A DNA stretch of 64,000 bases from a virus, in IMG/VR virus record IMGVR_UViG_3300048999_000191. One strand, 5' to 3'. The position numbers were made by a program, and so were the translations under genes. Shown piece after piece: positions 8,979 to 59,501 of the stretch (position 1 is the stretch's first letter; each line of letters begins with the position of its first letter). The notes beneath the pieces were generated by a model. It was given only the letters and a program-made list of their open reading frames with translations. It ran no database searches and was not told the origin of the DNA.

Positions 8979-9127
8979 GATCTTCCTCCTGTGCGGCTCT
9001 TCCGGTGCAGAGCCCGTCGAACGTTCTCGGGTAATGAACGAGCCCTCGCGGCTCGGGGTTACCGCGAGGGCTCGTTCTGACCGGATGAGTGGGTGTCGGG
9101 GGACCCTCCATCCGGGGCTTGGAGTGA

Positions 9128-9373
9128 CTAGCGGCCGAGAGCGGCCAGCCCGGCGGCGGTCAGCATCGCGGGGACGCGCTCACCGAGGGCGGCGATGTGG
9201 TCCGGAGCAAGAAGGCCGAGATGGGCGAGGCGGTGAGCCAGCGGCTGATCCCCGCAGCTCAGGCCGTCGATGAACAGGTCGGGCTCGCTGCTCACGGTCA
9301 GCATCGCGCGTCCAGCGGCGACGGCTCGGAGAAATGACCTCGGGCGGCCCGAGTCCAGCAGTGTGTCAGTCAT
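9128..9373 (-). CDS. Hypothetical protein of actinomycete type
   Basis: LRAVAAGRA..SSEPDLFIDGL.CGDQ..AH.LAH.GLL, recalled from actinomycete hypothetical proteins. Confidence 0.55.
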   Translation of the reverse strand: MTDTLLDSGRPRSFLRAVAAGRAMLTVSSEPDLFIDGLSCGDQPLAHRLAHLGLLAPDHIAALGERVPAMLTAAGLAALGR

Positions 9374-9482
9374 GATCCTCGGCTCCAGGTTGGCGAGGTG
9401 ATGGGTCCACACATTGCGATGCGACTGCGAGCTTGATCACAGTCGGACCTCCTGTGCGGTCTGTCGTACTGATCACTCTAAA

Positions 9483-9498
9483 CTACCCAAACGAGTAG
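9483..9498 (-). promoter_or_regulatory. Palindromic operator copy (1 mismatch)
   Basis: ctacccaaacgagtag. Confidence 0.65.
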
Positions 9499-9579
9499 TG
9501 CAAGCGACCCCCGGAAGATCACCCGTTTGGGTATCTTCCGAGGGTCGTGCAGTACCCCTCGCTCACCAGCCGGTTACCG

Positions 9580-9852
9580 TCAGTCCTCGACGGTCGCGGG
9601 GCTTTTGTCGAGGCTCACCGCGAGGGCGTCGATGTCCTCGCGGTCCAGTAGCCCCTTCCGGAAGCCGAGGCTCACGGCCTGGGTACGGCTGTTCGCGCCG
9701 ACCTTGCCGAAGATGCTGCGGATGTGCGACTTCACGTTGTCGACCCCGGTCTCGATGTGACCGGAGATCTGTTCGTTCGTCAGGCCGACGGCCACCAGAC
9801 GGAAGACCTCGTCCTCCTTCGCCGTCAGCGGACGGTGCTCGGTCGTGCTCAT
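9580..9852 (-). CDS. LuxR/GerE-family HTH transcriptional regulator
   Basis: LTAKEDEVFRLVAVGLTNEQIS...NVKSHIRSIFGKVGANSRTQAV..G. Confidence 0.9.
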   Translation of the reverse strand: MSTTEHRPLTAKEDEVFRLVAVGLTNEQISGHIETGVDNVKSHIRSIFGKVGANSRTQAVSLGFRKGLLDREDIDALAVSLDKSPATVED

Positions 9853-9919
9853 GTCGTTCTCTTTCCTCTGAGTCGGGGGTACTTCTACGTCCGATACTAC
9901 CCCAATGAGTACTACCCGT

Positions 9920-10204
9920 CTAGGGGGTGTTGGCCTTGTACCACTCGGTTGACGGGCGCTCGTGCTTGTCGTCGATTGCCAGCACGGCCTCGGCCAGGTC
10001 GCGGGAGCTGCCGCTCTCCTCGATCTGCCACAGGATCTCGCGCTTGGCCACGCAGGTGACCTTGAGCGTGCGCTGGTCGCCGGAACCGGTGATCTTGCCC
10101 TTCACCTTGGCGCCGAGGGCCCTCTCCTTGACCTTGACGTCGGCCAGCCAGATCTTCAGCAGCGACCAGCTGAGCAGGTTGTTGATCTTATCCTGGAAAC
10201 TCAT
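9920..10204 (-). CDS. Hypothetical protein
   Basis: 94 aa, ATGA-coupled. Confidence 0.6.
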   Translation of the reverse strand: MSFQDKINNLLSWSLLKIWLADVKVKERALGAKVKGKITGSGDQRTLKVTCVAKREILWQIEESGSSRDLAEAVLAIDDKHERPSTEWYKANTP

Positions 10205-10476
10205 GAGCGGACCTTTCTCGGGATGGAGTCGACGATCTCGACGTTGATCATGTGCTTGTCGCGCAGGCCCAGATGGCGGGCCAGCGCGCGGGCGGCGGAC
10301 TCGTAGCGCGCCGCCCGGCCCGCCTCGATGCCGTTCTCGGCGAAGGCGATGTAGCTGTGACGGCCGGTCCGCCGGATCGAGCCGATGAGGTCGACGTCCG
10401 GGAACACGACGTGGGCTTCACCCCAGTCGATCAGTTCGACCAGGGCCAGGATGGGCGGCAGGAACGGGGTCGGCAT
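10201..10476 (-). CDS. Hypothetical protein
   Basis: 91 aa, RBS hairpin upstream. Confidence 0.65.
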   Translation of the reverse strand: MPTPFLPPILALVELIDWGEAHVVFPDVDLIGSIRRTGRHSYIAFAENGIEAGRAARYESAARALARHLGLRDKHMINVEIVDSIPRKVRS

Positions 10477-10515
10477 GGCGATCTCCTCCAGTGCGGGGAT
10501 TTTGGTCAGGTCAGC

Positions 10516-10779
10516 TCATGAGCAGCACTCGGCGACCCAGGAGTAGTCCGGGGGCGCGGGCTGGCGGATGAGCGTGCCGGGCGGGAAGCCCGTTCCGCAC
10601 TGCCCGCAGGTGCCCGGCCACTGAGCCGGGAACCAGCGCGGGTCGGTCGCCAGCAGCTTCGCGCGCAGGGCCCGGGTGTCGGCCTCGGACTGCTCCTCGA
10701 CGGTCTTGTTGTTGCCCCGGCAGTGCGCGCACCCGAGCGAGGGCATGTCGTACAGCTCGCACCACGGCTCGTTGATCAT
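10516..10779 (-). CDS. Cys-rich hypothetical protein
   Basis: MINEPWCELYDMPSLGCAHC...CGQC. Confidence 0.6.
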   Translation of the reverse strand: MINEPWCELYDMPSLGCAHCRGNNKTVEEQSEADTRALRAKLLATDPRWFPAQWPGTCGQCGTGFPPGTLIRQPAPPDYSWVAECCS

Positions 10780-11024
10780 GATTTCCTCCGGAGGGGGATG
10801 CCGTCGCCGGACGCCGACTTCGGGCCGATGGTGGGCAGCGGGGACCACTTGACCCATCGGAGACGGGGGTGGCGGGGCGTGTTCGGGCCGGAGACGACCC
10901 AGATCTGCTCGCAGCCCTCGCACTGCCAGCGCGTGCCCTCCGGCAGCTCAGGACGGAACCAGGGCGAGATCGACGGCAGCTTGCAAGGGTGGTCCGGCTT
11001 GCGCTCGGGTGGCAGGAAGCCCAT
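10776..11024 (-). CDS. Hypothetical protein
   Basis: MGFLPPERKPDHPC; coupled to neighbours. Confidence 0.5.
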   Translation of the reverse strand: MGFLPPERKPDHPCKLPSISPWFRPELPEGTRWQCEGCEQIWVVSGPNTPRHPRLRWVKWSPLPTIGPKSASGDGIPLRRKS

Positions 11025-11251
11025 CAGCGATCGCCTCGCAGGTCCCAGCCGTAAAAAGTACGGGCGTACTGCTCGCCGCCATCGACCTTGCCGGTGACGT
11101 TCGGCGCGATCCGGACGACGTTCTCCACGGCGTCCACCACGGGTCCCAGATCGGCCGGGTGGCGCGTGGTCAGGGTGATGACGACCTCGAACACCTCCGG
11201 CGCCTCCTCGGCGCTGTCCGGCAGCAGCTGGATGCCCTCCAGGTCGTCCAT
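11024..11251 (-). CDS. Hypothetical protein
   Basis: 75 aa, AGGAG RBS. Confidence 0.55.
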   Translation of the reverse strand: MDDLEGIQLLPDSAEEAPEVFEVVITLTTRHPADLGPVVDAVENVVRIAPNVTGKVDGGEQYARTFYGWDLRGDR

Positions 11252-11349
11252 CGCTACTCCTTTCGGGTGAATCGGCAGAAAGTCGTGGGGGTTGCATTAC
11301 TCAGCGCGCCTAAGACGGCATATGAACCGTCCGGGCGGCGGGCCTACAA

Positions 11350-11877: not shown

Positions 11878-12264
11878 TCAGAAGAACATGACGGCCGTGA
11901 AGATCCCTGGCCCCTTGGCGTTGTCGCTCAGCTCCCAGACCATCCAGGCGTAGCCCTCCGGGTGATCGGGGCCGGTGGGGACGATCCGGCAGCGCCGCAC
12001 GCGCGCGCTCTTGATCTTTTCCCAGACCTCGTCGGCCAGGGCGGCGATGCCCTTCTCGGTGTCCGGCCACGCCGTCTCGTCCTCGACCTCGGGCTGACCG
12101 GCGTCGTAGGCCCAGCCGCCGATACGCTGGCCGTTCCAGTCCGAGTCGATAGCCTCTTCCAGCGCGAGCCGGTAGGCCTCACAAGGGTCGGTCACACCGC
12201 GCACCATGAAGCCGTCTTCGGCGAAGAAGTGCACGGCGACCTTGGACGCCTTACTTCCCGGCAT
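11878..12264 (-). CDS. Hypothetical protein
   Basis: 128 aa. Confidence 0.6.
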   Translation of the reverse strand: MPGSKASKVAVHFFAEDGFMVRGVTDPCEAYRLALEEAIDSDWNGQRIGGWAYDAGQPEVEDETAWPDTEKGIAALADEVWEKIKSARVRRCRIVPTGPDHPEGYAWMVWELSDNAKGPGIFTAVMFF

Positions 12265-13024
12265 CGGGCACCTCGTCTCCGAGCAGCCACTGTCGCGCGC
12301 CTGGGGTGCCGAAGTCCGGCGCCTCCTCGATGTCCCACCGGCGTCGCTGGGTCTCGGTGATGTGCTCCTGCTGGTCGCGCTTGTCGGTGTAGCGGACCTC
12401 CTCGATCTTCCAGCGCGGGACGATGATCGTGCCCCGCTTGAAACGCGGGTCCTCGTCGTTCCAGTTGATCCCCTTCTCCGACCGCAGCAGCTCCTGCATG
12501 CCTCCGGCGCTCAGCCCGTGCAGCCGTTTCGGGCTGAAGTGCGCCTGCGCGAGCATCGAGATCGAGTTGCGCGTGGCGTCGCGCTGACGCCAGAGGAAGT
12601 AGTTGATCACTTCCAGGTCGTCCGGGATCGTGAAAGTCCGGGCGTCGAAGAAGGCCAGGCGGCCCGCCGGGCGCAGTTTGTTGAACTGCGCCGTGGCCAT
12701 CGAGGAGGCCACCGAGACGATCTTCTGCACGTTGCCGTCGAACCACGCCTCGGTCTGGCGGGTGGCGAAGTCGGTGAGCAGGATGCTGATCTCGTCGGAC
12801 TGGGTGTAGCCCACCCGTGCCCCCTGGATCTCTTGGCAGAGGAACCGGGTGGTCTCGGCCATGTCGTCCATCAGCCGCTTGTCGTACGGCTTCTCCAGGC
12901 CCCTGGTGTAGGTGTGGAAGGCCTTACCGTCGAGCCGGATCAGGGTGTGCGTACGCCGAGGCAGGTGGGTCTGCGCCCGGCGCTCGTAGTGCCCCTTCAT
13001 CCGGTCACCCATGGGATCGTTCAT
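12251..13024 (-). CDS. thg1: tRNA(His) guanylyltransferase Thg1-like protein
   Basis: GDRMK.YE, IRLDGKAFHTYT, YTQSDEIS, FDGNVQK, FDAR, YFLWRQ.DATRNS, FKRG motifs. Confidence 0.93.
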   Translation of the reverse strand: MNDPMGDRMKGHYERRAQTHLPRRTHTLIRLDGKAFHTYTRGLEKPYDKRLMDDMAETTRFLCQEIQGARVGYTQSDEISILLTDFATRQTEAWFDGNVQKIVSVASSMATAQFNKLRPAGRLAFFDARTFTIPDDLEVINYFLWRQRDATRNSISMLAQAHFSPKRLHGLSAGGMQELLRSEKGINWNDEDPRFKRGTIIVPRWKIEEVRYTDKRDQQEHITETQRRRWDIEEAPDFGTPGARQWLLGDEVPDAGK

Positions 13025-13236
13025 CAGCCCTCCGCCGGATAGAGCGGAGTATCGAACCACCGCTGCATGGTCACCTCGTGCCCGTCGCTGTCGTCGAGGT
13101 GCTCGGGGATGCCGTACGGGAACTCCTGTGAGCTGTGCCGCATTCCGAAGGACTCGTGGAAGACGGCCGGTCGCTCGCAGACGTCGCACCATGGCGCGCG
13201 GTTGTAGCGCCGCATCAGCTCGCGGTCGCTGACCAT
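13024..13236 (-). CDS. Hypothetical protein
   Basis: 70 aa, coupled. Confidence 0.55.
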   Translation of the reverse strand: MVSDRELMRRYNRAPWCDVCERPAVFHESFGMRHSSQEFPYGIPEHLDDSDGHEVTMQRWFDTPLYPAEG

Positions 13237-13451
13237 CAGTCGTTCTCATCCTCGGGAAACATCTTGTCCCAGCACTTCGGGTGCGTGCCGGAGATCAGCG
13301 TCTCGCGCTGGTTCGGGGGCATCTGCGGCCAGACGTCCTGGATGAACTCGCCCGCCTGCCAGCGCCGGACCTCCTCAGCGTCCAGCGTGAACTCGCTCGT
13401 CTTCGAGCACTCGGGGCAGGCGGGCGTGGTGAAGGTGATCATGTTGCTCAT
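13236..13451 (-). CDS. Small Zn-finger-like phage protein
   Basis: CPEC...RETLISGTHPKCWD, recalled from actinophage small proteins. Confidence 0.7.
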   Translation of the reverse strand: MSNMITFTTPACPECSKTSEFTLDAEEVRRWQAGEFIQDVWPQMPPNQRETLISGTHPKCWDKMFPEDEND

Positions 13452-13894
13452 CAGTCCTCCGTGGACTCGTTGAAGTCGGTCTCCAGCAGCGTGAAGTCCT
13501 GGCGGCGGAACTCGCCGATGTCCGTCGGCCCGCCGCTGGTCATGATGGTGACGAAGAAGAGCCGCTGATCGCGCCAGCGGTTGACCTCGTGGAACGTGCT
13601 GATTCGGCCGACCACGTTCGCCTCGTGCAGCCGGACGTGGTCGCCCTGCTCGACGTCCGTACCGGTATAGGCCGGGGAGCCGGGCACCTGGCCGACGATC
13701 TCGGAGTGCTGGGCAATGCCATCACCGAGCCGGACGCCGATGTTGCCGGGCGAGGTCGACCAGAGGCAGGTCCACTCGGTGTCCGGCAGCTGATCGTCCG
13801 GGTAGGTCGGCTGCATCCGGACCCAGATCGTGTAGCCCGGCGCCTCGCCGTCGTCGTGGTGGTCCTCGCGGCGGACCGTGCCGATGGGATCCAT
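13451..13894 (-). CDS. Hypothetical protein
   Basis: Start MDPIGTVRR fixed by RBS hairpin. Confidence 0.65.
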   Translation of the reverse strand: MDPIGTVRREDHHDDGEAPGYTIWVRMQPTYPDDQLPDTEWTCLWSTSPGNIGVRLGDGIAQHSEIVGQVPGSPAYTGTDVEQGDHVRLHEANVVGRISTFHEVNRWRDQRLFFVTIMTSGGPTDIGEFRRQDFTLLETDFNESTED

Positions 13895-15756: not shown

Positions 15757-15878
15757 CACGCCCATCCCCGGCCCGCGTGCTTGCGGGTGCGGCGGTAGGC
15801 CTTCTTGTTGCGATGCGGGCTGGCGGCCGAGCTGCGGTGCAGCTCCTGTACCTGCTGGATCTTCGTCTTCGCGGACAT
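15756..15878 (-). CDS. Small basic protein (40 aa)
   Basis: MSAKTKIQQVQELHRSSAASPHRNKKAYRRTRKHAGRGWA; follows promoter and RBS hairpin; TGATG-coupled. Confidence 0.7.
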   Translation of the reverse strand: MSAKTKIQQVQELHRSSAASPHRNKKAYRRTRKHAGRGWA

Positions 15879-16367: not shown

Positions 16368-16685
16368 TCAGCGACCGAGCAGCAGGTCCATCGTCCGCGA
16401 CTTGATCGTGGCACTCAGCTCCAGCATCTCGACGTCGGAGAGCATGCCGACCGCCTCGGCGATCGCGGCCACCTTGTTGCCGCCGAGGTCGTACTGGCCC
16501 ACCCGGACGGCCGCCTGATGGGCGTCCCACTCCGCACGGTCGAAGATGAGGATCGGGCTGGCTTCGCCGAGCTTGCCGTCCCGGACGGCGATCTCGTCCT
16601 GGTCGGCCTGGCTCAGGTCCACCTCGACGCAGTTGTCGCCCTTCTCGCTGCATCTGCCGGGCTTCTGCCACTGACGTTCGATCAT
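16368..16685 (-). CDS. DUF397 (BldB/Scr2-like) domain protein
   Basis: WQK..CS....NCVEV...IAVRDGK....PILIF...EW.A....VR.GQYD. Confidence 0.85.
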   Translation of the reverse strand: MIERQWQKPGRCSEKGDNCVEVDLSQADQDEIAVRDGKLGEASPILIFDRAEWDAHQAAVRVGQYDLGGNKVAAIAEAVGMLSDVEMLELSATIKSRTMDLLLGR

Positions 16686-16773
16686 GTGGTGCTCCTTCAG
16701 TGTGGTGCCCTCACCGCCCAGGTGCGGCAGGGGAGCGCTCGGGTGATCAATGAGGGAACAAGCGACCCCGTCC

Positions 16774-16866
16774 GGCGACATCCACCGGCTCTACGCCCCG
16801 AGCGCGAGTGAGGTTCGAGCCCGCGCGCTTCCCCGCAGGGGCTGGAGTCGGGTCTGGTGGGACGCC
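16774..16866 (+). ncRNA. Putative structured RNA with T-loop-like apex
   Basis: Long imperfect stem with G-U pairs on + strand; GGTTCGAGCC near apex. Confidence 0.35.
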
Positions 16867-16949
16867 TATCACCGTCAGCGCCACGACGTCGTCCAGCTGG
16901 TCATCTCAGTTCGTAGGGAATATTACTTTGAACCGTGTAGCCTGGCAAT

Positions 16950-17354
16950 ATGCCATACGCAAACCCCGCCCAGCAGCGAGAGTATCAGCGCCATTGGATG
17001 GCTCAGCGCCGGACCGAGTGGATCTCTGAGCATGGCCCTTGCTGTTTTTGCGGTTCGGATGTGGGCCTTGAAGTTGACCACATCGACCGAGCCACCAAGG
17101 TGGACCATCGGATCTGGAGCTGGTCTGCCGCTCGTCGCCAGATCGAGTTGGCAAAGTGCCAGGTACTTTGTGGTGTCTGTCATCTTCGGAAAACGCGCGA
17201 AGAACAATCTCTAAAAAATTATCACGGAACCTGCACTGGATATAGAAAGTACAAATGTCGTTGCGATCTATGCAAGGCAGCTCATGCTGCCTACTTTCGC
17301 GACTGGCGCAGCCGCAAAAAGGGATCTGACGGCCCCAGGTTGCCTAGGACCTGA
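16950..17354 (+). CDS. HNH endonuclease, probably homing type
   Basis: CCFC...LEVDHID...CQVLCGVCH..KT plus HGT.TGY...KCRCDLC; lower GC; opposite strand; next to tRNA. Confidence 0.85.
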   Translation: MPYANPAQQREYQRHWMAQRRTEWISEHGPCCFCGSDVGLEVDHIDRATKVDHRIWSWSAARRQIELAKCQVLCGVCHLRKTREEQSLKNYHGTCTGYRKYKCRCDLCKAAHAAYFRDWRSRKKGSDGPRLPRT

Positions 17355-17418: not shown

Positions 17419-17446
17419 GGGAGAGCGTGGCTGACTGTCGAGATCG

Positions 17447-17519
17447 TGGACCCGGGTGGACTCGAACCACCGACCTCTCCCGTTTCGGGGGAGCGCTCTG
17501 CCATCTGAGCTACAAATCC
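17447..17519 (-). tRNA. tRNA-Phe(GAA), atypical
   Basis: GGATTTG TA GCTC AGATGGCA GAGC G CTCCC CCGAAAC GGGAG AGGTC GGTGG TTCGAGT CCACC CGGGTCC A; no encoded CCA. Confidence 0.85.
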
Positions 17520-17559: not shown

Positions 17560-17640
17560 CTACAGCCCCGTTTCGATGTCCTTCTTCCACGCGTCGATCA
17601 TGTCGTCGAGCTTGTCCTTCAGGCTGATCTCGAACCCCAT
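17560..17640 (-). CDS. Micro-protein (26 aa)
   Basis: MGFEISLKDKLDDMIDAWKKDIETGL after RBS hairpin 17647-17662. Confidence 0.55.
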   Translation of the reverse strand: MGFEISLKDKLDDMIDAWKKDIETGL

Positions 17641-21725: not shown

Positions 21726-21767
21726 GCGCTGCCTCCGATGCGGCTTGGTCTCGTTGAGTCGACAATA

Positions 21768-33188: not shown

Positions 33189-33225
33189 AGGGATTCCTTC
33201 CGATGCAGGATGTTGCGAGTCGACA

Positions 33226-36004: not shown

Positions 36005-36044
36005 GTTGACCTCCGGTGCGGTCCTTGAACTGACAAAACCCACA

Positions 36045-36060
36045 CTACCCGTTCAGGTAG
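36045..36060 (-). promoter_or_regulatory. Palindromic operator in promoter
   Basis: ctacccgttcaggtag; TTGACT-17-TAGTGT. Confidence 0.85.
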
Positions 36061-36083
36061 TATGAGTCAAGTCGGCGGAGTGA

Positions 36084-39508: not shown

Positions 39509-39548
39509 GGGAGCCTCCGGTGCGGCTGGTTGCGCTGACTCCCTGATA

Positions 39549-39859: not shown

Positions 39860-39906
39860 CCTGACCTCCAGTGTGGTCCTGCATGTGCAGATGGATGAGC
39901 ATCAAG

Positions 39907-41037: not shown

Positions 41038-41313
41038 TCAGGGGTTCTTGATCTCGATCCGCATGCGGCGAGCCTTCTCCGGGACCTCCGCCACCCAGAC
41101 CGAGCCCACAGCGAGGTCGAAGAAGCTCGCCAGGGCGCGCGTGAGGTGGAAGATGCCGTCGACCGTCTGGCCCGGTGTCAGCTCCACGATGAGCCCGTCA
41201 CCGTCCTCGTCGAGCGGCCGCGAGCCGATGAGCGGGGTGAGCCGATTCGGGCAGGTCTCCTTGTTGGAGAGAGTCTCCCACTGCTCGCGCAGGGTCTTGA
41301 TGTCGTTGGACAT
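41038..41313 (-). CDS. Hypothetical protein
   Basis: 91 aa, AAGGAG RBS. Confidence 0.6.
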   Translation of the reverse strand: MSNDIKTLREQWETLSNKETCPNRLTPLIGSRPLDEDGDGLIVELTPGQTVDGIFHLTRALASFFDLAVGSVWVAEVPEKARRMRIEIKNP

Positions 41314-41433
41314 GGTGATCTCCTTCGGTGTGGTGGAAGGGCGGCCACCGCAGGCAGAACAGGTGGCTCCGCGCCCAACCAGCCCGACGCGCTATCCTGC
41401 GGTTGTTCTGTGGCTGTCCACGCCGCCCTTGAT

Positions 41434-42397: not shown

Positions 42398-42621
42398 CCC
42401 TGCTCTTCCTTCGCGGAGTTGATCATGTTCTTGTACGCCTCGTTCACGTCCTGGCTTTCGACGTTCGCGTACGCCAGCGCGAGCGCCATGAGCAAGGCGT
42501 CGGACTGGTTCACCCGGCGGCGGAGCTTGTGCTGCACGTATAGCTGCCACTGGGTCAACGTGGCTCGCGCGTCGCTCTTGAGCGAGATGCTGGTGTAGCC
42601 GTAGCGGTTGTCGTCGGCCAT
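42394..42621 (-). CDS. Possible ribbon-helix-helix DNA-binding protein
   Basis: YTSISLKSDARATL...VNQSDALLMAL. Confidence 0.5.
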   Translation of the reverse strand: MADDNRYGYTSISLKSDARATLTQWQLYVQHKLRRRVNQSDALLMALALAYANVESQDVNEAYKNMINSAKEEQG

Positions 42622-43430
42622 CACGCCAGCTTGAAGTGGTCGTCGGTCAGCTCGGTCAGGCCCTTGAGCGCGAGGACCTTGATCTTCTTCCCCTCGCGCT
42701 TAGCGTTCCAGGCCTTGGCCCCGGCGGCCAGGAACGGCTTCACCGGCTTCTCGCCGCCCTTCTGCGCGGAGCGGATGATCAACGCCCGCAGGGCCAGCTC
42801 GGGGTCCCCAGCGTGTAGCCCCTCGCCGTTGCGCACGCCCTCCCAGAACTCCAGGGCCGTGGCCGCGTCGATCCGGAAGGTGAGGAAGTACAGGCAGCCG
42901 AAGGCGGCCGGGAGGGCGCCGATCTCGTTGCGCAGGCCCATGCCGTAGCGCACGGCCTGGCCCATTGCGTCGCGGTTCTGGATGACGTAGTCGACGATCT
43001 CGGCGTCGGTGGGCTTGTAGACCTCACCCCGGACCTCTTCGACCTCCCACAGCAGCACAAGCCGGGTGACGGCCTGGGCCGACTTCGCCGACGGGATGCC
43101 GTGGCCCATGGTCAGCTCGTCGGAGGCAGACCGGCGCCGGTTCTTGTCCATCTTGAACCGGTCTTCGCGAGCGATGTTCTCGACGATGATGAATTCGAGC
43201 GTCACGCCCGCATCGATCAGCGCGCTCAGCCGGTGCTGGCCGTCGATCAGGTGGCCCTCGGTGTCGAACTTGATCGTCTCGCCGATGTTGGGGAACTGGC
43301 CGTTGCGCATGTCGCGGGCGAGCTTGCTAACCCAGGTCGGCGAGATCTTCCGGTTCTCGTTGTTCGTCGCCAGCCACTTCTTCGCCAGCTGGGGCGTCAC
43401 CGGGATCTTGCGGTGCTTGATATCGCTCAA
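42621..43430 (-). CDS. ParB-like (DGQHR) N-terminal domain protein
   Basis: VTPQLAKKWL..N..NR...LARDMRNG.F...LIDGQHRL.A. Confidence 0.8.
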   Translation of the reverse strand: MSDIKHRKIPVTPQLAKKWLATNNENRKISPTWVSKLARDMRNGQFPNIGETIKFDTEGHLIDGQHRLSALIDAGVTLEFIIVENIAREDRFKMDKNRRRSASDELTMGHGIPSAKSAQAVTRLVLLWEVEEVRGEVYKPTDAEIVDYVIQNRDAMGQAVRYGMGLRNEIGALPAAFGCLYFLTFRIDAATALEFWEGVRNGEGLHAGDPELALRALIIRSAQKGGEKPVKPFLAAGAKAWNAKREGKKIKVLALKGLTELTDDHFKLA

Positions 43431-43472
43431 GACGGGGTCTCCATTCCCTCCGGTGCGGGGTACCCGATCAGA

Positions 43473-45212: not shown

Positions 45213-45254
45213 GGGGTGCTCCTCCGATGCGGGGCAGGTAGATATGGGTAGACC

Positions 45255-51616: not shown

Positions 51617-51826
51617 CTACTTGGGCCGGGTGTAGGGCACCTCGTCGTCGGCGTCGAAGTAGCGCGGGGCGTGCCCGCCATCGGCGTGACGCACGCCGAC
51701 GTAGACCTGGAGCTTGCCGTTGACGGGGTTGACGCCCTCGGACACGGCGTCGGTCAGGATGGTGATCAAGACGTTTCCGTCGGCGTCGCGGTACTCGTCG
51801 CCCGCCTGGAGTTCCTTCGCGAGCAT
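51617..51826 (-). CDS. Small hypothetical protein
   Basis: 69 aa. Confidence 0.6.
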   Translation of the reverse strand: MLAKELQAGDEYRDADGNVLITILTDAVSEGVNPVNGKLQVYVGVRHADGGHAPRYFDADDEVPYTRPK

Positions 51827-51880
51827 GGCTCGCTCCCTTCGTGAGGAGAGGCCGGGGGCGCGAGACCCCCGGCCGGTGGA

Positions 51881-52774: not shown

Positions 52775-52821
52775 CTGGGCCTCCGGTGCGGCTCATTCTT
52801 GCTGACAAGAACGACATTACC

Positions 52822-54928: not shown

Positions 54929-55246
54929 CTACACTTCCCGGTAGACGCGCGGGCGCCGCTCCGGACCCACCAGGTCGCCGCAGTCGACGATCCAGACGGG
55001 GCCCTCGGCGGTGCCCGGCCGGATGATGCCCCAGCCGAGGCCGTAAGGGTCGTCCTTCATCACGTGGGTGAGGAAGCGCGCGGCGAGGTAGGGCGCGTCG
55101 TCGTAACGCGTGTCGGACCCGGCGGCCTCGTTGGCCTGGAAAAACTTGATCATGACCTTGCTGACTTCGCTGCCGTAGTAATGCGTGTAGATCGCGGCCT
55201 CGACGCGGTCGAATTCCTTGAAGTGGATCATGCCCCGATCGCCCAT
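54929..55246 (-). CDS. Hypothetical protein
   Basis: MGDRG.I...IYTHYYG...RYDD..YLAARF. Confidence 0.7.
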   Translation of the reverse strand: MGDRGMIHFKEFDRVEAAIYTHYYGSEVSKVMIKFFQANEAAGSDTRYDDAPYLAARFLTHVMKDDPYGLGWGIIRPGTAEGPVWIVDCGDLVGPERRPRVYREV

Positions 55247-55353
55247 GATGGACTCCCTTCGTTGTGGGTGTTTCCGGTGGTGGGTAGACGGCCCCGCCCC
55301 ACCGGAGTGACGGGGGCCGCCGGTCTGTGGTTACAGCTGAGTCAACCCCTGGG

Positions 55354-55995
55354 TCACTCGCCGTTTTCGATCGTCGTTCGGATGGCGGGCAGCGCCTTGA
55401 GCGCGAACCACTCGGCCGGGCCACTCTCGCTCATGTGATACGAGCCGAAGTCCACCAGGCCCTCACGGCCGTCGTGCCACTCGCCGGTGTACTCGTTCTT
55501 CCACTTCCACTCGCAGCCTCGCTGGTCCAGCCAGAGGCCCAGCTCGTGCACGAAGCGCGCGTGCCGGTCCGAGCACGACTCGCCGCGCTCGTTCATGAAG
55601 CTGTAGCCGGTATCGATCGAGACCTCGACGGTGGCCCAGCCGTTCTCCGTGGGGTCACTGGCGACCCACTCCTCGTGCTCGCGCACGTCCTCGGCCGTGA
55701 CCTTGTAACGCTTCTTCGGCAGGTCCCACTTCGCCCAACCGACCTCGGTCTCGCAGGAGTCGGTGTGCACGTGGGTCATCGGGCCATCGGCGCCGTAGTA
55801 CATGATCAGCCAACCGTCGAGATCAATGCCGGGCTCGTGCCACAGGCTCTTCTGGCCCTTGCGATTGCCCTTCTCGACCTCGTCCCGGATCGAAACGTGG
55901 TCCGGGGTGTCGAGCAGCGTCCGGCAGTACAAGAAGATCTCGCGTGCACTCACGGGAGCGACGGCGCGGATCGCGATGCGGGTGTCGAGAGTCAT
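55354..55995 (-). CDS. Hypothetical phage protein
   Basis: MTLDTRIAI...VSIDTGYS; RBS hairpin. Confidence 0.7.
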   Translation of the reverse strand: MTLDTRIAIRAVAPVSAREIFLYCRTLLDTPDHVSIRDEVEKGNRKGQKSLWHEPGIDLDGWLIMYYGADGPMTHVHTDSCETEVGWAKWDLPKKRYKVTAEDVREHEEWVASDPTENGWATVEVSIDTGYSFMNERGESCSDRHARFVHELGLWLDQRGCEWKWKNEYTGEWHDGREGLVDFGSYHMSESGPAEWFALKALPAIRTTIENGE

Positions 55996-56016: not shown

Positions 56017-56265
56017 TCAGGACAGGGCGAAGTTGATCCGACTTTCGGTGACCTCGTACTCGGCCAGCTGCTCCAGCAGCATCTCGCGGAAGTCCGCATC
56101 CGAAGCGGTGTCGACGACCTGACCGTTTTCGATGCCCTGCCACTCGTCACCTTTGCGGATCCAGGCGCACCCCTTGGTCGCGGTCCAGCCGGTCATCTCC
56201 CGAGCCGGAGTGAAGCGGAAGGCGGCCTTGAGCAGGTGTTCGGTGCGGAAGGTGTCGAGCGACAT
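56017..56265 (-). CDS. Hypothetical protein
   Basis: 82 aa; promoter and RBS hairpin. Confidence 0.65.
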   Translation of the reverse strand: MSLDTFRTEHLLKAAFRFTPAREMTGWTATKGCAWIRKGDEWQGIENGQVVDTASDADFREMLLEQLAEYEVTESRINFALS

Positions 56266-56340: not shown

Positions 56341-56712
56341 TCAGGCGTCCTGCGCGGCACGGTCCATGGCCTCGGCGAGCATCCGCTGGCGCGGCGCGTC
56401 GTCCCAGGTGTGCGGGCCGGTCAGGGCCTTGATCGCCGAGGCGATGGCGCCCTGGCCGTGCGTGTACGTGTCGTCCTGCATCAGCACGTCGCCCGCCGGG
56501 CCGCTGTCGGTGGCGGGACGGCCGCACACGAAGAACTGGGTCATGTGCATGTACTGGCCCTCGCCGGTGCGGGTGAAGCCCTCCTCGGTGACCGCGTACA
56601 GCTCGGTGCCGGGCACCTGGGCCTGCCAGTAGCGCAGCATCGTGTGCTCATCCGAGATGAAGCTGGGCTGCTCGGGGCTGGTCAGCTCGACGTGGTCCAG
56701 GGCGATGGCCAT
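56341..56712 (-). CDS. Hypothetical protein
   Basis: 123 aa; own promoter. Confidence 0.65.
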   Translation of the reverse strand: MAIALDHVELTSPEQPSFISDEHTMLRYWQAQVPGTELYAVTEEGFTRTGEGQYMHMTQFFVCGRPATDSGPAGDVLMQDDTYTHGQGAIASAIKALTGPHTWDDAPRQRMLAEAMDRAAQDA

Positions 56713-56978: not shown

Positions 56979-57015
56979 CCGGACGGGGCGGGAAGAGAAT
57001 TGCCGCCCCGTCCGG
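56979..57015 (-). terminator. Terminator-like hairpin after ardC
   Basis: CCGGACGGGGCGG/CCGCCCCGTCCGG. Confidence 0.7.
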
Positions 57016-57020
57016 GGCTC

Positions 57021-57959
57021 TCAGGCGGCCGTGGTGGCCTTGTCGTCCTCGGTCTCCTCCTTGGCCACGGCGCGGCCCAAAACCATGTCAGCGGCCTTCT
57101 GGGCCTTCCCGGCGGCCACGATGACCGCGCGCGGGTCCTCCTTGATCGTCTTGATCCAGGAGGCCAGGTAGGCGGCCGAGTTCTTCTGGGTGCTCTCGAT
57201 GCCGGTCTCGGCGCAGAGGAACGCGGCGCCCATCTCGGCGATCAGCTCCTCGCGGCCGTAGGCGTGGCTGCCGAAGGCGTTGTTGCGGCTCTCCGCGCGG
57301 TTCAGGCGGTGCTCGGCGGCGGTCGAGTGGGTCAGCTCGTGGAACAGCGTCGCGTGGTACTCGTCCAGGCCGTGGAAGCTCTCCTTCAGCGGCATGGTCA
57401 GCTCGTCGGTGGCCCAGGTGAAGTGCGCCGAGTCGCCGCCGTGCTTGATGACCGGCTTGGCCTCCCAGGCGTCCACCACGGCCTGCGCGGCCGCGTGGCG
57501 CTCCTCGGGGCTGGGGACCGGACGGGCCACCGGGAAGGCGTCCTTCGGCAGTTTCTCGATGCCCTCGGTCTGGTCCAGGTTGAACACGTAGAAGTGCTTG
57601 AGCAGCGGGATCATCTTCTTCTTGCCGGTCGCCTCGTCCTCGATCGGCAGCAGCTTCCAGAAGGTGACCAGGGTGCCCTTCTGCGAGCCCTTCTCGCCCT
57701 TCAGGTGACCGCCCAGCTTGGCCATCTGGTTGAAGGTCAACCAGTACGCGCTGCGGTAACCCTTCTCGGCCTGCTCCAGGCCCAGCAGGAAGGCGTTGAC
57801 GCCCCGGTAGGCCTTGCCCGAGGAGAGCGACTTCGGCGCGCCGGTGACGCTGTCCCACGGCTTGTTCCACGGCGCGGTGCCGTTCTCCAGCGCGGTCAGG
57901 ATCTTGGTGGTGACGACGTCGTAGACATCGACCTTGGGCTTGCGGGCGGTGGTGGCCAT
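57021..57959 (-). CDS. ardC: ArdC-family ssDNA-binding antirestriction protein (DUF1738 + zincin-like domain)
   Basis: Y..VT.KI...LE.G..PW.KPW, Y.GVN, WLTFNQ, VFNLDQ, TLFHELTHST, FGS..Y.REELIAE.GAAF, AAYL.SW. Confidence 0.93.
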   Translation of the reverse strand: MATTARKPKVDVYDVVTTKILTALENGTAPWNKPWDSVTGAPKSLSSGKAYRGVNAFLLGLEQAEKGYRSAYWLTFNQMAKLGGHLKGEKGSQKGTLVTFWKLLPIEDEATGKKKMIPLLKHFYVFNLDQTEGIEKLPKDAFPVARPVPSPEERHAAAQAVVDAWEAKPVIKHGGDSAHFTWATDELTMPLKESFHGLDEYHATLFHELTHSTAAEHRLNRAESRNNAFGSHAYGREELIAEMGAAFLCAETGIESTQKNSAAYLASWIKTIKEDPRAVIVAAGKAQKAADMVLGRAVAKEETEDDKATTAA

Positions 57960-58004
57960 GTTGTCCTCCGGTGCGGACGGTGTTCTTTGCTGACAAGAAG
58001 GACA

Positions 58005-58020
58005 CTACCCGTTTAGGTAG
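58005..58020 (-). promoter_or_regulatory. Palindromic operator in ardC promoter
   Basis: ggaca-ctacccgtttaggtag-tgtcc; TTGACG-17-TAGTGT; RBS hairpin 57963-57978. Confidence 0.88.
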
Positions 58021-58045
58021 TGTCCGTCAAGCCCCTTCGGCGACA

Positions 58046-58330
58046 TCAGTCCAGCGGATCTTCGCCGGGTTCGAGGATCATCCAGGGACTGCCACCCGCA
58101 TCGACCAGTACACGGGTGCCCGGGTGATCGAACAATTCCAGCAGCACCTGGCCCTCGGGCATGTTCTCGGGCGTGAAGCCCACGAAAATCATCGAAGGGA
58201 CCGGCCAGGCCATTGGGTGCGGCTCGACGCTGGTCACCCGCACGACGGGGTACAGGGACCGTTCCCGGGTGCAGAACAGCCGGGAGCCGACCAGATCAGG
58301 CGTAGTGGATTCCAGGGTCAGGGGACGCAT
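58046..58330 (-). CDS. Hypothetical protein
   Basis: 94 aa. Confidence 0.5.
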   Translation of the reverse strand: MRPLTLESTTPDLVGSRLFCTRERSLYPVVRVTSVEPHPMAWPVPSMIFVGFTPENMPEGQVLLELFDHPGTRVLVDAGGSPWMILEPGEDPLD

Positions 58331-58334
58331 GCGA

Positions 58335-58562
58335 TCAGCCCGCGTTGAAATTCTCGTGCACGACGCCCTGCTTCACGCGGGGTCCTGCCGTGCCGAGCTT
58401 CTGGAGCTTCGCCTTCCCGTGCGCCCAGACGTCCGGCGACTGGTCACCACGCGTGCCCTTCGCCAGCTCGCGAGCGAGCTTCGGCGTGGCCGCCGCGACC
58501 ACGAGCGACTCCATCTCGTCGTAGCCGCAGTCCGGGCGTTCGATCAGGTAGAGGTTCAGCAT
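58335..58562 (-). CDS. Small phage protein
   Basis: LYLI.R...GYDE..S.VVAA...V....FNAG. Confidence 0.7.
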   Translation of the reverse strand: MLNLYLIERPDCGYDEMESLVVAAATPKLARELAKGTRGDQSPDVWAHGKAKLQKLGTAGPRVKQGVVHENFNAG

Positions 58563-58620
58563 GGCCGGTTCCCTTCGTGGAAGTGGCGGAGCGCCGGTGT
58601 GGCGCCCCGCCGGGGTGGAG

Positions 58621-58965
58621 TCAGTAGGTGATCGAGCCGCCGTCCATGCCGACCGGCATGACTCCGGCCTTGGCCAGCGCGCAGGCCTCGTCGGCGTCTT
58701 CGGCGTACTCCCAGCCCTCGTCGGCCCGGTTCTGCGCCCAGACGTGCTCGTGACCGGCTTCGCAGACGAACGCCCGGCCGTCGTCCCACGCCAGCGCGTC
58801 GCAGTTGAGGACGATCCGACCGCCGTCCTCGTCGGTCAGGTAACCCCAGCGGTCACGCGCGTAGGACTGCCAGCTGCACGGGCCAGCCTGCCCGGCGTAG
58901 CAGCGGCGGACCCCTTCGACGGTGAGATGGGTGCCCTTGCAGTTCCCGCAGGTGATGCTCGACAT
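58621..58965 (-). CDS. Small Cys/His-rich protein
   Basis: ITCGNCK..H..V..VR.C; promoter and RBS hairpin. Confidence 0.7.
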   Translation of the reverse strand: MSSITCGNCKGTHLTVEGVRRCYAGQAGPCSWQSYARDRWGYLTDEDGGRIVLNCDALAWDDGRAFVCEAGHEHVWAQNRADEGWEYAEDADEACALAKAGVMPVGMDGGSITY

Positions 58966-59015
58966 TCTGGCCTCCGGTGCGGCGCTCGCTTCGTGCTGAC
59001 AAGAGGAACGCTACA

Positions 59016-59031
59016 CTACCCATCCGGGTAG
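59016..59031 (-). promoter_or_regulatory. Palindromic operator filling promoter spacer
   Basis: ctacccatccgggtag; TTGACA-18-TAGCGT. Confidence 0.88.
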
Positions 59032-59234
59032 TGTCAACTACCAAGGTGCCCGGGGGCGGTGGATGACGCGCAGGCCCTGGCGCAGGATTCCCGGCGGAAG
59101 TGGCTCGATGGTCATCAGCCACATCGTCAGAACGGTGAGGATCCAGGCCAGCTGGCGAGCCAACCGGAGCAGCATCAGGACGCTCCAGCCGACCCACCGC
59201 AGGAAGTAGAACGTGACCAAGTCGTCGTACACGA

Positions 59235-59456
59235 TCAGACCTGCGTGGCGGCGGCGACGAGGATTGTGGGTGCTGTCGGGTGGGCGCGGAGAAGCCCCGC
59301 CATGATCCGGGCCTGGCTCTTGCCGCTGGACAGCGTGACCGTCCAGTCGCCGTGCTCGTCGCGGATGAAGATCATGTGTCGAATGTCCGAACGGGAGCTG
59401 GAGAGCGTGACTCGGCGTCCCAGGGAGTTCTTGGCGGTGTAGGCGATCTTCGACAT
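59235..59456 (-). CDS. Hypothetical protein
   Basis: 73 aa; promoter and RBS hairpin. Confidence 0.65.
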   Translation of the reverse strand: MSKIAYTAKNSLGRRVTLSSSRSDIRHMIFIRDEHGDWTVTLSSGKSQARIMAGLLRAHPTAPTILVAAATQV

Positions 59457-59501
59457 CTGGGCCTCCGGTGCGGCTCGGTGCTTGATGGGTTTAACGGTAC
59501 A

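What the first reader, a model, noticed from the sequence alone, without database searches (positions are those of the whole stretch)
8983..59475. Covarying RNA hairpin (loop RCAYNGGA) overlapping the Shine-Dalgarno of more than 30 genes: candidate translational operator
Seen (mRNA sense): 3-6 bp stem plus a fixed 8-nt loop (GCACCGGA, GCACUGGA, GCAUCGGA, GCACAGGA, ACAUUGGA). Loop GGA plus the 3' stem form the SD, a few nt before the start codon. Stem sequence changes but pairing is kept: GACC/GGUC (9446, 36008 and many others), CACC/GGUG (17647), UUCC/GGAA (18488), GUCC/GGAC (27415, 57963), AGCC/GGCU (39512). At 33195, UCCU/AGGA is a compensatory change in the otherwise nearly invariant closing pair. 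It usually follows the operator-promoter but also occurs alone (near 10483, 16260, 18488, 27415, 46618, 56002). Inference: binding site for an RNA-binding translational repressor/activator or a site-specific RNase, giving a second control layer on the same regulon. I do not recognise it as a described motif.
Basis: partly seen in the sequence, partly recalled or inferred. Interest (0 to 1): 0.85.

Follow-up and report, generated by a model that had tools for sequence, protein, structure and literature searches.

The report
Ribosome-site RNA hairpin on phage early genes
About 34 genes of an uncultured ~150 kb actinobacterial phage start with the same small RNA hairpin built around their ribosome-binding site, which probably lets one still-unidentified factor control translation of the whole early gene set.

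Summary
The window is part of an uncultured ~150 kb actinophage. It holds 34-35 copies of NNCC-[GCAC(C/U/A)GGA]-GGNN, all on the minus strand. The loop's GGA plus the 3' arm form the Shine-Dalgarno (SD) site, usually 7 nt before the start codon.

Stem pairs 3 and 4 covary strongly and pairs 5-7 do not, so the stem is 4 bp and the loop 8 nt. Covariation survives collapsing related copies. Orthologous sites show compensatory and G.U changes. The predicted hairpin is weak (-3 to -5 kcal/mol) and no more stable than shuffled sequence, so structure rests on covariation alone.

The motif sits only at genes with an upstream gap of 20 nt or more, and follows 24 of 27 operator-promoters. Six related contigs carry it, one with a different promoter/operator. 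Cultured distant relatives lack it. Rfam and the literature search found nothing.

Best reading (about 0.5): an RNA operator in the translation-initiation region for an unidentified trans-acting factor, either a repressor or an SD-cutting RNase. No such factor was found.

The closest known thing is the Cluster K mycobacteriophage start-associated sequence (SAS/ESAS), whose function is still unknown. This is a new variant of that kind, and the first with covariation evidence.

Other first-stage notes in this scan flagged the promoter-operator cassettes on this same stretch.

The parts
8983..8998 (-). SD copy AGCC[GCACAGGA]GGAA, start codon at 8978
   Evidence: Only 2 contiguous pairs. Overlaps the 3' arm of the hairpin at 8997-9012.
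8997..9012 (-). Upstream hairpin with the same loop, (GG)CUCU[GCACCGGA]AGAG(CC). 6-bp stem, not itself the SD.
   Evidence: Covariance-model hit of 17.7 bits. The minimum-free-energy fold shows the 6-bp stem.
9446..9461 (-). GACC[GCACAGGA]GGUC, start codon GTG at 9440
   Evidence: 27.3 bits
10483..10498 (-). CCCC[GCACUGGA]GGAG, start codon at 10476, no promoter upstream
   Evidence: 24.0 bits
13898..13913 (-). AGCC[GCACUGGA]GGCG, start codon at 13894
   Evidence: 27.7 bits
15882..15897 (-). GACC[GCACCGGA]GGUC, start codon at 15878
   Evidence: 28.8 bits
16259..16274 (-). CCCC[GCACUGGA]GGCG, start codon at 16255
   Evidence: 26.4 bits
17647..17662 (-). CACC[GCACUGGA]GGUG, start codon at 17640 (small ORF upstream of tRNA-Phe)
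   Evidence: 28.8 bits
18488..18503 (-). UUCC[GCACAGGA]GGAA, start codon at 18482, inside an operon
   Evidence: 19.8 bits. The G001 and G004 orthologues have a plain SD.
21730..21745 (-). AGCC[GCAUCGGA]GGCA, start codon at 21725
   Evidence: 22.9 bits
24150..24165 (-). CCCC[GCACUGGA]GGAG, start codon GTG at 24143
   Evidence: 26.6 bits
25775..25790 (-). AGCC[GCACUGGA]GGCC, start codon at 25771
   Evidence: 28.9 bits
26257..26272 (-). GGCC[GCACCGGA]GGUU (two G.U pairs), start codon at 26253
   Evidence: 25.4 bits
27415..27430 (-). GUCC[ACAUUGGA]GGAC, start codon at 27412, inside an operon
   Evidence: 20.1 bits
29314..29329 (-). GACC[GCACUGGA]GGUC, start codon at 29309
   Evidence: 25.1 bits
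32388..32403 (-). GACC[GCACUGGA]GGUC, start codon at 32384
   Evidence: 31.1 bits
33195..33210 (-). UCCU[GCAUCGGA]AGGA (U:A closing pair), start codon GTG at 33188
   Evidence: 21.9 bits; fold
36008..36023 (-). GACC[GCACCGGA]GGUC, start codon at 36004
   Evidence: 31.6 bits; fold
39512..39527 (-). AGCC[GCACCGGA]GGCU, start codon at 39508
   Evidence: 28.3 bits. The G001 orthologue has GGCC/GGUC.
39863..39878 (-). GACC[ACACUGGA]GGUC, start codon at 39859
   Evidence: 26.3 bits
43445..43460 (-). CCCC[GCACCGGA]GGGA, before the conserved 269-aa DGQHR-like gene (start codon ambiguous, 43430-43444)
   Evidence: 21.1 bits. The motif is kept at this gene in G001, G002, L256 and L257.
45219..45234 (-). 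CCCC[GCAUCGGA]GGAG, start codon at 45212
   Evidence: 21.9 bits
46618..46633 (-). CGCC[GCAUUGGA]GGCC, start codon GTG at 46612, no promoter upstream
   Evidence: 24.3 bits
48542..48557 (-). GACC[GCACCGGA]GGUC, start codon at 48538
   Evidence: 28.4 bits
49059..49074 (-). AGCC[GCACCGGA]GGCC, start codon at 49055
   Evidence: 30.4 bits
50183..50198 (-). CGCC[GCACCGGA]GGCC, start codon at 50179
   Evidence: 27.1 bits
51281..51296 (-). GACC[GCAUCGGA]GGUC, start codon GTG at 51277
   Evidence: 27.0 bits. The G002 orthologue has GUCC/GGAU.
52778..52793 (-). AGCC[GCACCGGA]GGCC, start codon at 52774
   Evidence: 28.1 bits
54824..54839 (-). AGCC[GCACCGGA]GGCC, start codon at 54820
   Evidence: 29.6 bits
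56001..56016 (-). UCCC[ACACUGGA]GGAU, start codon at 55995. [quoted passage not shown]
   Evidence: 16.2 bits
56269..56284 (-). GACC[ACACCGGA]GGUC, start codon at 56265
   Evidence: 27.8 bits
56716..56731 (-). ACCG[ACACCGGA]GGAA, a degenerate copy with a G.G closing mismatch, start codon at 56712
   Evidence: 21.6 bits. The motif is lost in the G001 orthologue.
57963..57978 (-). GUCC[GCACCGGA]GGAC, start codon at 57959 (ArdC-like gene)
   Evidence: 30.4 bits; Pfam hit. The minimum-free-energy fold prefers the alternative CAC-triloop hairpin here.
58969..58984 (-). CGCC[GCACCGGA]GGCC, start codon at 58965
   Evidence: 26.4 bits
59460..59475 (-). AGCC[GCACCGGA]GGCC, start codon at 59456
   Evidence: 28.5 bits

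Best explanation
The element is a cis-acting RNA hairpin in the translation-initiation region of promoter-proximal, presumably early, phage mRNAs. It has a 4-bp stem of free but complementary sequence and an almost invariant 8-nt loop, GCAC(C/U/A)GGA.

The loop displays the first three SD bases, GGA, unpaired. The 3' arm holds the next two, GG, paired. The start codon follows at a fixed distance.

Shown here: the pairing is under selection, the loop is under strong purifying selection, the element is anchored to start codons, and it marks the first cistron of nearly every operator-controlled promoter.

Inferred: the hairpin is the operator for one trans-acting factor that recognises loop plus stem. 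That factor would be either a translational repressor that blocks 30S binding or an endoribonuclease that cuts within GGAG. By acting on the first cistron it would shut off, or time, translation of the whole early regulon, since downstream genes overlap by 1-4 nt and are probably translationally coupled. This would be a post-transcriptional layer on top of the DNA operator.

The hairpin alone is too weak (-3 to -5 kcal/mol) to block ribosomes strongly. That is the usual design of a protein-dependent operator.
For: RNA pairing:
- Stem pairs 3 and 4 are paired in 23/31 and 18/31 window copies, against 12.1 and 10.0 in permutations (p<=4e-4). Each of four relatives shows the same. Pairs 5-7 are at chance.
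- Tool test: covariation 0.344 against 0.090+-0.025, with 0 of 500 shuffles reaching it. An independent set of 89 hits, 88 of them from the four relatives, gives 0.357 against 0.100.
- The signal persists with one copy per flank-similarity cluster (46 clusters): 29.5 and 27.0 paired against about 15.
- Orthologous sites differ by G:C<->A:U<->U:A swaps and by G.U intermediates.

Anchoring to translation:
- Loop end to start codon is 7 nt in 21 of 31 copies (range 6-10). The distance from the -10 hexamer to the stem ranges from 12 to 28 nt.
- In two further contigs, most of the 22 hits end 2 nt past the first base of an independently called gene.
- 0 of 45 genes with an upstream gap under 20 nt carry it, against 32 of 67 with a larger gap. 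24 of 27 operator-promoters are followed by it. 8 copies lack a promoter and sit inside operons.

Loop selection:
- The distribution of mismatches to the motif is bimodal.
- The same loop occurs in G003, which has 59% GC and a different promoter/operator palindrome.
- The same loop sits on a 6-bp stem that is not the SD at 8997-9012.
- The base at 3'-arm position 3 follows its stem partner. It shows no preference for U, which would extend pairing with the anti-SD (the 16S 3' end is from my own knowledge).

Weak intrinsic stability.

Precedent: T4 RegB cuts GG^AG in early SD sites. [quoted passage not shown] T4 RegA represses about 30 early mRNAs (PMC3014915).
Against: - No trans factor was identified. 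RegB (PF10715), ParE/RelE (PF05016), CsrA (PF02599), S21 (PF01165) and S1 (PF00575) were not found in four relatives.
- Pfam scans of 109 window proteins and of about 65 proteins of relative G001 gave no RNA-binding regulator.
- Folding energies are not better than shuffled sequence.
- In some copies an alternative CCG/CGG hairpin with a CAC triloop competes.
- 12% of copies have a C.A mismatch at pair 3.
- 'Early' is inferred only from sigma-A-like promoters and from the motif's absence in the structural block.
Confidence: 0.5

Rival explanations
1. Autonomous ribosome-binding-site module with no dedicated phage factor. The hairpin presents GGA in a loop and the conserved GCAC contacts the host 30S subunit (rRNA or a ribosomal protein). 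This would give a standard, tuned initiation rate to first cistrons, allow coupling to upstream termination inside operons, or make early translation sensitive to temperature or ribosome state.
For: - Start-codon anchoring and use as the SD are shown.
- The hairpin is marginally stable.
- In operon-internal copies the upstream stop codon lies in or just before the 5' arm.
- No phage factor was found.
- The motif is kept in phages of 59% and 67% GC, which would fit a conserved host partner.
Against: - An invariant 5' half of the loop has no complementarity to the 16S 3' tail (my own knowledge of that sequence).
- Other genes of the same phage use plain GAAGGAG-type SD sites in similar intergenic positions.
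- The motif is absent from cultured relatives that infect Mycobacterium, Gordonia and Rhodococcus.
Confidence: 0.3
2. Pairing site for a trans-acting phage or host RNA. An antisense or small RNA would pair with the loop GCACYGGA and mask the SD.
For: A conserved single-stranded 8-nt loop would suit kissing interactions. One UCCAGUGC complement exists on the motif strand at 17233-17240, near tRNA-Phe.
Against: That single complement lies in an AT-rich island next to plus-strand ORFs, and I did not find it to be conserved or structured. No Rfam hit other than tRNA was found. No repeated anti-motif was seen.
Confidence: 0.07
3. DNA-level site: a second operator, a pause site or a nicking site recognised in double- or single-stranded DNA.
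For: It lies close to promoters in 24 of 27 cases. The strand bias also equals the direction of transcription and possibly of replication.
Against: - Complementarity is conserved without sequence conservation, which is not how DNA-binding proteins read sites.
- G.U-type pairs occur on the sense strand.
- Spacing to the start codon is fixed while spacing to the promoter varies.
- Copies occur inside operons without promoters.
Confidence: 0.05
4. No function of its own. The motif would be a passenger in a promoter-leader cassette that spread by duplication or gene conversion.
For: Some copies share whole leaders, for example 36008, 51281 and 56269. Other first-stage notes describe cassette arrays.
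Against: - Leaders between the -10 hexamer and the stem differ in length and sequence, and stems have diverged with compensation, yet the loop is nearly invariant.
- G003 has the motif behind an unrelated promoter type.
- Individual genes gain and lose the motif.
Confidence: 0.05

Closest known systems
[quoted passage not shown] 2011, PMC3203893; PMC11373665; PMC12699233)
   Same: - A short conserved asymmetric motif with complementary ends (GGG-AUAGGAG-CCC) that contains the SD and lies 3-9 nt before start codons.
- 11-19 copies per genome in the 2011 description, in one orientation, restricted to non-structural (early lytic) genes.
- About half are preceded by an ESAS, now read as a SigA-like promoter with an embedded inverted repeat. 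That is the same two-module layout as operator-promoter plus hairpin here.
- Membership turns over between related phages.
- Function is still unknown.
   Different: - Unrelated sequence: 13-nt GGGATAGGAGCCC against NNCC-GCACYGGA-GGNN.
- Unrelated phage lineage: a ~60 kb temperate siphovirus against a ~150 kb phage whose portal is only about 40% identical to those of Cluster C-like myoviruses.
- In SAS the whole SD lies in the would-be loop and the arms are invariant. In my test on five Cluster K genomes, covariation gave no information.
- Here the arms vary and covary, which shows an RNA hairpin.
T4 RegB endoribonuclease targets and the RegA translational-repressor regulon (review PMC3014915)
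   Same: - Post-transcriptional shut-off of some 30 early mRNAs at their ribosome-binding sites.
- RegB cuts GG^AG in early SD sites. Without S1 it needs GGA unpaired and the fourth G constrained, as in the predicted loop/stem junction here.
   Different: - No RegB (PF10715) or RelE-like homologue was found in four relatives.
- Strong RegB sites have an A-rich 3' consensus (GGAGRAYARAA), which is absent here.
- RegA sites are AU-rich and unstructured.
- This is a resemblance in logic and geometry only.
CsrA/RsmA binding sites (my own knowledge; not checked in a paper here)
   Same: GGA presented in the loop of a short hairpin that overlaps the SD. Binding blocks the ribosome. One protein has many targets.
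   Different: - The Csr consensus is a hexaloop A(N)GGA(N) in CANGGANG. Here the loop is 8 nt and the spacing differs.
- No CsrA (PF02599) was found in four relatives.
- CsrA is not typical of Actinobacteria (my own knowledge).
Single-gene phage translational operators (T4 gp43 hairpin operator, PMC3014915; RNA-phage coat-protein operators, my own knowledge)
   Same: A small hairpin with a sequence-specific loop, next to or overlapping the ribosome-binding site, bound by a phage protein to repress translation.
   Different: Those act on one gene each. This element heads more than 30 genes per genome.

Membership tests
Cluster K SAS | Match to GGGATAGGAGCCC with at most 2 mismatches | tested here: not met
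   The motif is NNCC-GCACYGGA-GGNN. SAS definition from PMC3203893 and PMC12699233.
Cluster K SAS | Lies 3-9 nt upstream of start codons and contains the SD | tested here: met
   Loop end to start codon is 6-10 nt, with a mode of 7. Most of the 22 hits in L256 and L257 end 2 nt past the first base of an independently called gene.
Cluster K SAS | Single orientation, restricted to non-structural genes | tested here: met
   34 of 34 copies are on the minus strand. None lies in the portal/head block at 1-8.7 kb.
Cluster K SAS | A subset is preceded by an ESAS (SigA-like promoter with an inverted repeat) | tested here: met
   24 of 27 TTGAC...ACTACCC-N4-GGGTAGT promoters are followed by the motif. 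ESAS description from PMC11373665.
Cluster K SAS | Occurs in Cluster K mycobacteriophages | tested here: not met
   The portal's best hits are Gordonia, Rhodococcus and Cluster C phages at about 40% identity. No nucleotide match to any deposited phage.
T4 RegB target site | GGAG in the SD of early genes | tested here: met
   GGAGG in 33 of the 35 listed copies and GGAAG in the other two (8997-9012 and 33195-33210). 'Early' is inferred.
T4 RegB target site | GGA unpaired and the fourth G constrained (S1-independent substrates) | tested here: inconclusive
   Predicted by the covariation-supported structure. No probing data. Criterion from PMC3014915.
T4 RegB target site | A-rich 3' consensus GGAGRAYARAA | tested here: not met
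   The 3' flank is the stem arm plus a GC-rich spacer.
T4 RegB target site | The phage encodes RegB (PF10715) | tested here: not met
   0 of 4 relatives have a match. The window's own genome outside the window could not be searched.
CsrA/Rsm binding site | CsrA-family protein present (PF02599) | tested here: not met
   0 of 4 relatives have a match. The host is unknown.
CsrA/Rsm binding site | GGA in a hairpin loop overlapping the SD | tested here: met
Any Rfam family | Score at or near a family's gathering threshold at the hairpin sites | tested here: not met
   Only tRNA at the gathering threshold. Nothing at the hairpins at E<=1 in 48-60 kb.

The most novel reading that the evidence does not exclude
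The hairpin is the recognition element of a still-unrecognised phage-encoded factor, either a structure-specific endoribonuclease that cuts the SD or a translational repressor. It would be a functional analogue of T4 RegB or RegA with no sequence similarity. It would switch off an entire early regulon in actinobacterial phages. The long-unexplained SAS of Cluster K mycobacteriophages would be the same kind of device.
Probability: 0.35. Interest if true: 0.75.

Novelty: new variant of a known kind. Interest (0 to 1): 0.6.

Why it matters
Start-associated sequences were described in Cluster K mycobacteriophages in 2011. The 2024 and 2025 papers read here still call their role unknown or unverified. 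Their arms never vary, so their sequence cannot reveal whether they act as RNA structure.

This element has the same position, orientation, gene class and promoter partner, but its arms vary and covary. That gives direct comparative evidence that such an SD-embedded element works as an RNA hairpin with a sequence-specific loop.

The question becomes testable with simple reporters and RNA pull-downs. It points to a regulon-wide post-transcriptional switch in actinobacterial phages, where almost nothing is known about translational control. It would also give a compact, portable ribosome-binding-site/operator module for high-GC hosts.

Tried and rejected
- Trans factor by family: RegB, ParE/RelE, CsrA, S21 and S1 were not found in relatives G001-G004.
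- Pfam and PHROG scans: 109 window proteins and about 65 proteins of relative G001 gave no RNA-binding regulator.
- RMF-like ORF: a 72-aa ORF in G001 scores 25.7 bits against a cut-off of 27.9. It is weak in G002, absent in G003, and has no match to solved structures. Not pursued as the partner.
- Clade-specific core genes: these were listed by presence in G001, G002 and G003 and absence from RedWattleHog and Loanshark. A small acidic 117-aa protein whose own gene carries the motif did not look like an RNA binder.
- The 269-aa gene: it is the only accessory-region gene family shared by all relatives (G001 carries two copies). It has a DGQHR/ParB-like consensus, so it is more likely to act on DNA.
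- Anti-motif RNA at 17233-17240: judged to be chance.
- Alternative fold CCG/YGG with a CAC triloop: it competes in some copies. It is not supported because loop position 5 is often A, and position -3 is rarely U.
- Mimicry of a tRNA D-arm or of 16S helix 45, and extended pairing with the anti-SD: considered from memory and dropped for lack of a consistent match.
- Cluster K SAS covariation: the arms are almost invariant, and the apparent signal is explained by mixing true and chance sites.
- Literature search for the motif string: only primers turned up.

Full report
**What the window is.** The window has 67% G+C, and nearly all genes are on the minus strand. ORF 349-2553(-) is a portal protein (PHROG 2833, E 6e-147). 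Its best deposited relatives are about 40% identical: Gordonia phages RedWattleHog and Stormageddon, Rhodococcus phages Finch and E3, and Cluster C mycobacteriophages. No deposited phage matches at the nucleotide level, and no whole genome is held for the window. Accessory genes include ArdC, a Thg1-like enzyme, GmrSD, Tad3, DUF397 and a GerE regulator. The window is therefore a 64 kb piece of an uncultured actinobacterial phage of about 150 kb. A protein look-up shows its own contig to be 154,911 bp.

**The observation.**
- The bare 8-mer RCAYNGGA is not enriched overall (47 found, 40 expected), but 44 of 47 matches lie on the minus strand.
- With its context the element is NNCC-[GCAC(C/U/A)GGA]-GGNN, followed by about 3 nt and a start codon.
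- A covariance model built from 34 copies finds 34 hits at E<=0.05, all on the minus strand. Scores then drop from 16 to 14 bits into noise on both strands.
- Among 68 start sites with a GGARG SD, 27 have no mismatch to CCRCAYN just upstream, 2 have one mismatch, and the rest centre on 4-5 mismatches. It is a discrete class, not the tail of ordinary SD context.

**Is it a hairpin?** Copies were selected by the loop and the first two bases of the 3' arm (GGARG) only, so stem pairs 3 and 4 played no part in the selection.
- Stem pairs 3 and 4, counted from the loop, form standard pairs in 23/31 and 18/31 window copies. Permutations give 12.1 and 10.0 (p<=4e-4).
- The same holds separately in four related genomes. 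Pairs 5-7 are at chance everywhere. The closing pair shows rare C:G to U:A double changes.
- The structure-count tool gives a covariation score of 0.344 against 0.090+-0.025 in shuffles (0 of 500 reach it), and at most 0.072 for slid partners. RNAalifold recovers the helix.
- An independent set of 89 hits, 88 of them from the four relatives, gives 0.357 against 0.100. That alignment was fitted to the model, so it leans towards the structure.
- Copies share ancestry, so I collapsed 149 copies into 46 clusters by flank similarity and sampled one per cluster. Pairs 3 and 4 stay at 29.5 and 27.0 of 46, against about 15 expected. Pair 5 is at chance.
- Orthologous genes in different phages differ by compensatory swaps: CGCC/GGCA, AGCC/GGCC and GACC/GGUC at one gene; GUCC/GGAU against GACC/GGUC at another. 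They also differ by G.U intermediates.

Thermodynamics adds little. The hairpin is worth only -3 to -5 kcal/mol. Leaders do not fold better than shuffled sequence, with z-scores from -0.25 to +0.7. In some copies a CCG/CGG hairpin with a CAC triloop competes. The case for structure rests on covariation.

**Where it sits.**
- The distance from the loop to the start codon is 7 nt in 21 of 31 copies (range 6-10). The distance from the -10 hexamer to the stem varies from 12 to 28 nt. The element is anchored to translation, not to the promoter.
- In the 8.9-59.6 kb region, 32 of 67 predicted genes with an upstream gap of 20 nt or more carry it. None of the 45 genes that overlap or abut the previous gene do.
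- 24 of 27 promoters of the type TTGAC...ACTACCC-N4-GGGTAGT(-10) are followed by it within 75 nt.
- 8 copies have no such promoter and lie inside operons, several with the upstream stop codon in or just before the 5' arm. This argues against a role that needs the 5' end of the mRNA.
- The head and portal block at 1-8.7 kb has none.
- At 8997-9012 the same loop sits on a 6-bp stem that is not the SD, directly upstream of an SD copy.

**Relatives.**
- IMG/VR holds four relatives: G001 (155 kb, 80-95% identical where alignable), G002 (150 kb, about 70%), G004 (a 40 kb fragment) and G003 (155 kb, 59% G+C, most distant).
- Pattern counts on the gene strand against the other strand are 44/2, 35/3, 12/3 and 24/2. 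Reversed-pattern controls give 0-7.
- The model finds 88 hits in these four, and 1 in 290 kb of RedWattleHog plus Loanshark. The simple pattern is at control level in RedWattleHog, Finch, E3 and Loanshark.
- Two further contigs of about 150 kb, L256 and L257, carry 12 and 10 hits in 20 kb. Most of these end 2 nt past the first base of a gene called independently by the collection's own gene caller. A more distant contig, L255, has none.
- G003 keeps the hairpin but has a different promoter/operator (GTAGCAAGAAAnCTTGCTAC). The two modules are therefore separable, and the loop is conserved over a larger distance than the operator.
- Between the window and G001 the motif is kept at 19-22 of 22-23 orthologues. 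At greater distance about half keep it, and clear gains or losses occur. Window 18488 has the motif where G001 and G004 have a plain SD.

**What it most likely does.** Four things are established.
- The pairing is selected.
- The five loop bases that are not needed for SD pairing are almost invariant, while the stems drift.
- The base at 3'-arm position 3 follows its stem partner rather than the anti-SD (the 16S 3' end is from my own knowledge).
- The element is the ribosome-binding site of first cistrons.

A weak hairpin with a sequence-specific loop at the ribosome-binding site is the classic design of a translational operator. I therefore favour a trans-acting factor that recognises loop plus stem and either blocks the 30S subunit or cuts the SD.

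The T4 precedent is close in logic. RegB cuts GG^AG in early SD sites. Without S1 it needs GGA unpaired and the fourth G constrained, which is the predicted loop/stem junction here. RegA represses about 30 early mRNAs (PMC3014915). This step is inference. No RegB, RelE-like, CsrA, S21 or S1 homologue, and no other candidate, was found, and no RNA data were available.

The main rival is an autonomous ribosome-binding-site module read by the host ribosome. DNA-level, antisense-RNA and passenger readings are much less likely, for the reasons given under rivals.

**What is known.** Nothing matches in Rfam, and the motif string does not appear in the searched literature. The kind of element has a precedent, the SAS/ESAS of Cluster K mycobacteriophages.
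- The SAS is a 13-nt GGGATAGGAGCCC, 3-9 nt before the start codons of 11-19 non-structural genes (the 2011 count), in one orientation.
- About half are preceded by an ESAS, now read as a SigA-like promoter with an inverted repeat.
- Its function is still undefined (PMC3203893, PMC11373665, PMC12699233).
- The layout is the same, but the sequence and the phage lineage are not.
- In five Cluster K genomes the SAS arms are nearly invariant, so covariation cannot be tested there.

I therefore class the element as a new variant of a known kind. Its added value is the first comparative evidence that such an element is an RNA hairpin.

**Verdict.** I put about 0.85 on a selected RNA hairpin tied to translation initiation, and about 0.5 on an operator for a trans-acting factor. 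Interest is 0.6.

Noticed in passing
window 9.4-59.5 kb, minus strand; for example 36030-36075: 27 copies of a sigma-A-like promoter, TTGAC...-10 TAG(T/G)(G/A)T, with a palindrome ACTACCC-N4-GGGTAGT whose right arm overlaps the -10 hexamer. This is the 'operator-promoter' of the other first-stage notes. 24 of the 27 are followed by the hairpin.
   Followed up: partly
G003 (IMGVR_UViG_3300036772_000367), for example L207:5600-5700: The 59% GC relative has a different promoter-associated palindrome (GTAGCAAGAAAnCTTGCTAC) in front of the same SD hairpin. This suggests the DNA operator system was swapped while the RNA element was kept.
   Followed up: partly
window 51826-51880, 55246-55290, 41313-41360, 16685-16730, 11251-11300 (minus strand): A second class of intergenic leaders lacks the hairpin and has a canonical extended SD (CAC..GAAGG(G)AG). 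Some follow terminator-like GC hairpins. They may belong to a different temporal class.
   Followed up: no
window 42621-43430 (-): A 269-aa protein (PHROG 5931, no Pfam hit) with invariant ...LIDGQHRL..., a DGQHR/ParB-like consensus. It is the only accessory-region gene family shared by G001, G002 and G003, and G001 carries two copies. It keeps the hairpin in front of it in the window, G001, G002, L256 and L257, but not in G003. It has about 200 homologues, including one in a Streptomyces chromosome.
   Followed up: partly
G001 74151-74366 (L190:14151-14366), just after an Lsr2-like gene: A 72-aa ORF with a sub-threshold match to ribosome modulation factor RMF (PF04957, 25.7 bits against a cut-off of 27.9; the ...PY...W..GW.G motif). 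It is weak in G002 and absent in G003. An RMF-like protein would act at the anti-SD region of the 30S subunit. No link to the hairpin was shown.
   Followed up: partly
window 16750-17350: An AT-richer island of about 600 bp with plus-strand ORFs (16750-17214 and 16950-17354). It lies between tRNA-Phe (17446-17519, minus strand) and the next minus-strand gene and looks like an inserted foreign gene.
   Followed up: no
window 12251-13249 (-) and 57021-57959 (-): A Thg1-like 3'-5' nucleotidyltransferase (PF04446, E 1e-26) and an ArdC-like anti-restriction/metallopeptidase gene. Elsewhere in 8.7-59.5 kb there are Pfam hits to Tad3 (anti-Thoeris), GmrSD, an Rv2179c-like 3'-5' exoribonuclease, DUF397 and GerE.
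   Followed up: no
Cluster K phages Anaya, ZoeJ, Pixie, Kratio and Unicorn (L241-L254): The SAS arms GGG/CCC are almost invariant. A few ATAGGAG sites have other complementary arms (UAC/GUA in Pixie, UGG/CCA in Kratio), but not more often than chance once true and chance sites are separated.
   Followed up: yes
G001 71794-72147 and orthologues in G002 and G003: A small acidic protein (81-117 aa) with a conserved C-terminal VAPTxDGxGxxRLxFD motif. It is specific to the motif-bearing clade and its own gene carries the hairpin. Function unknown.
   Followed up: partly
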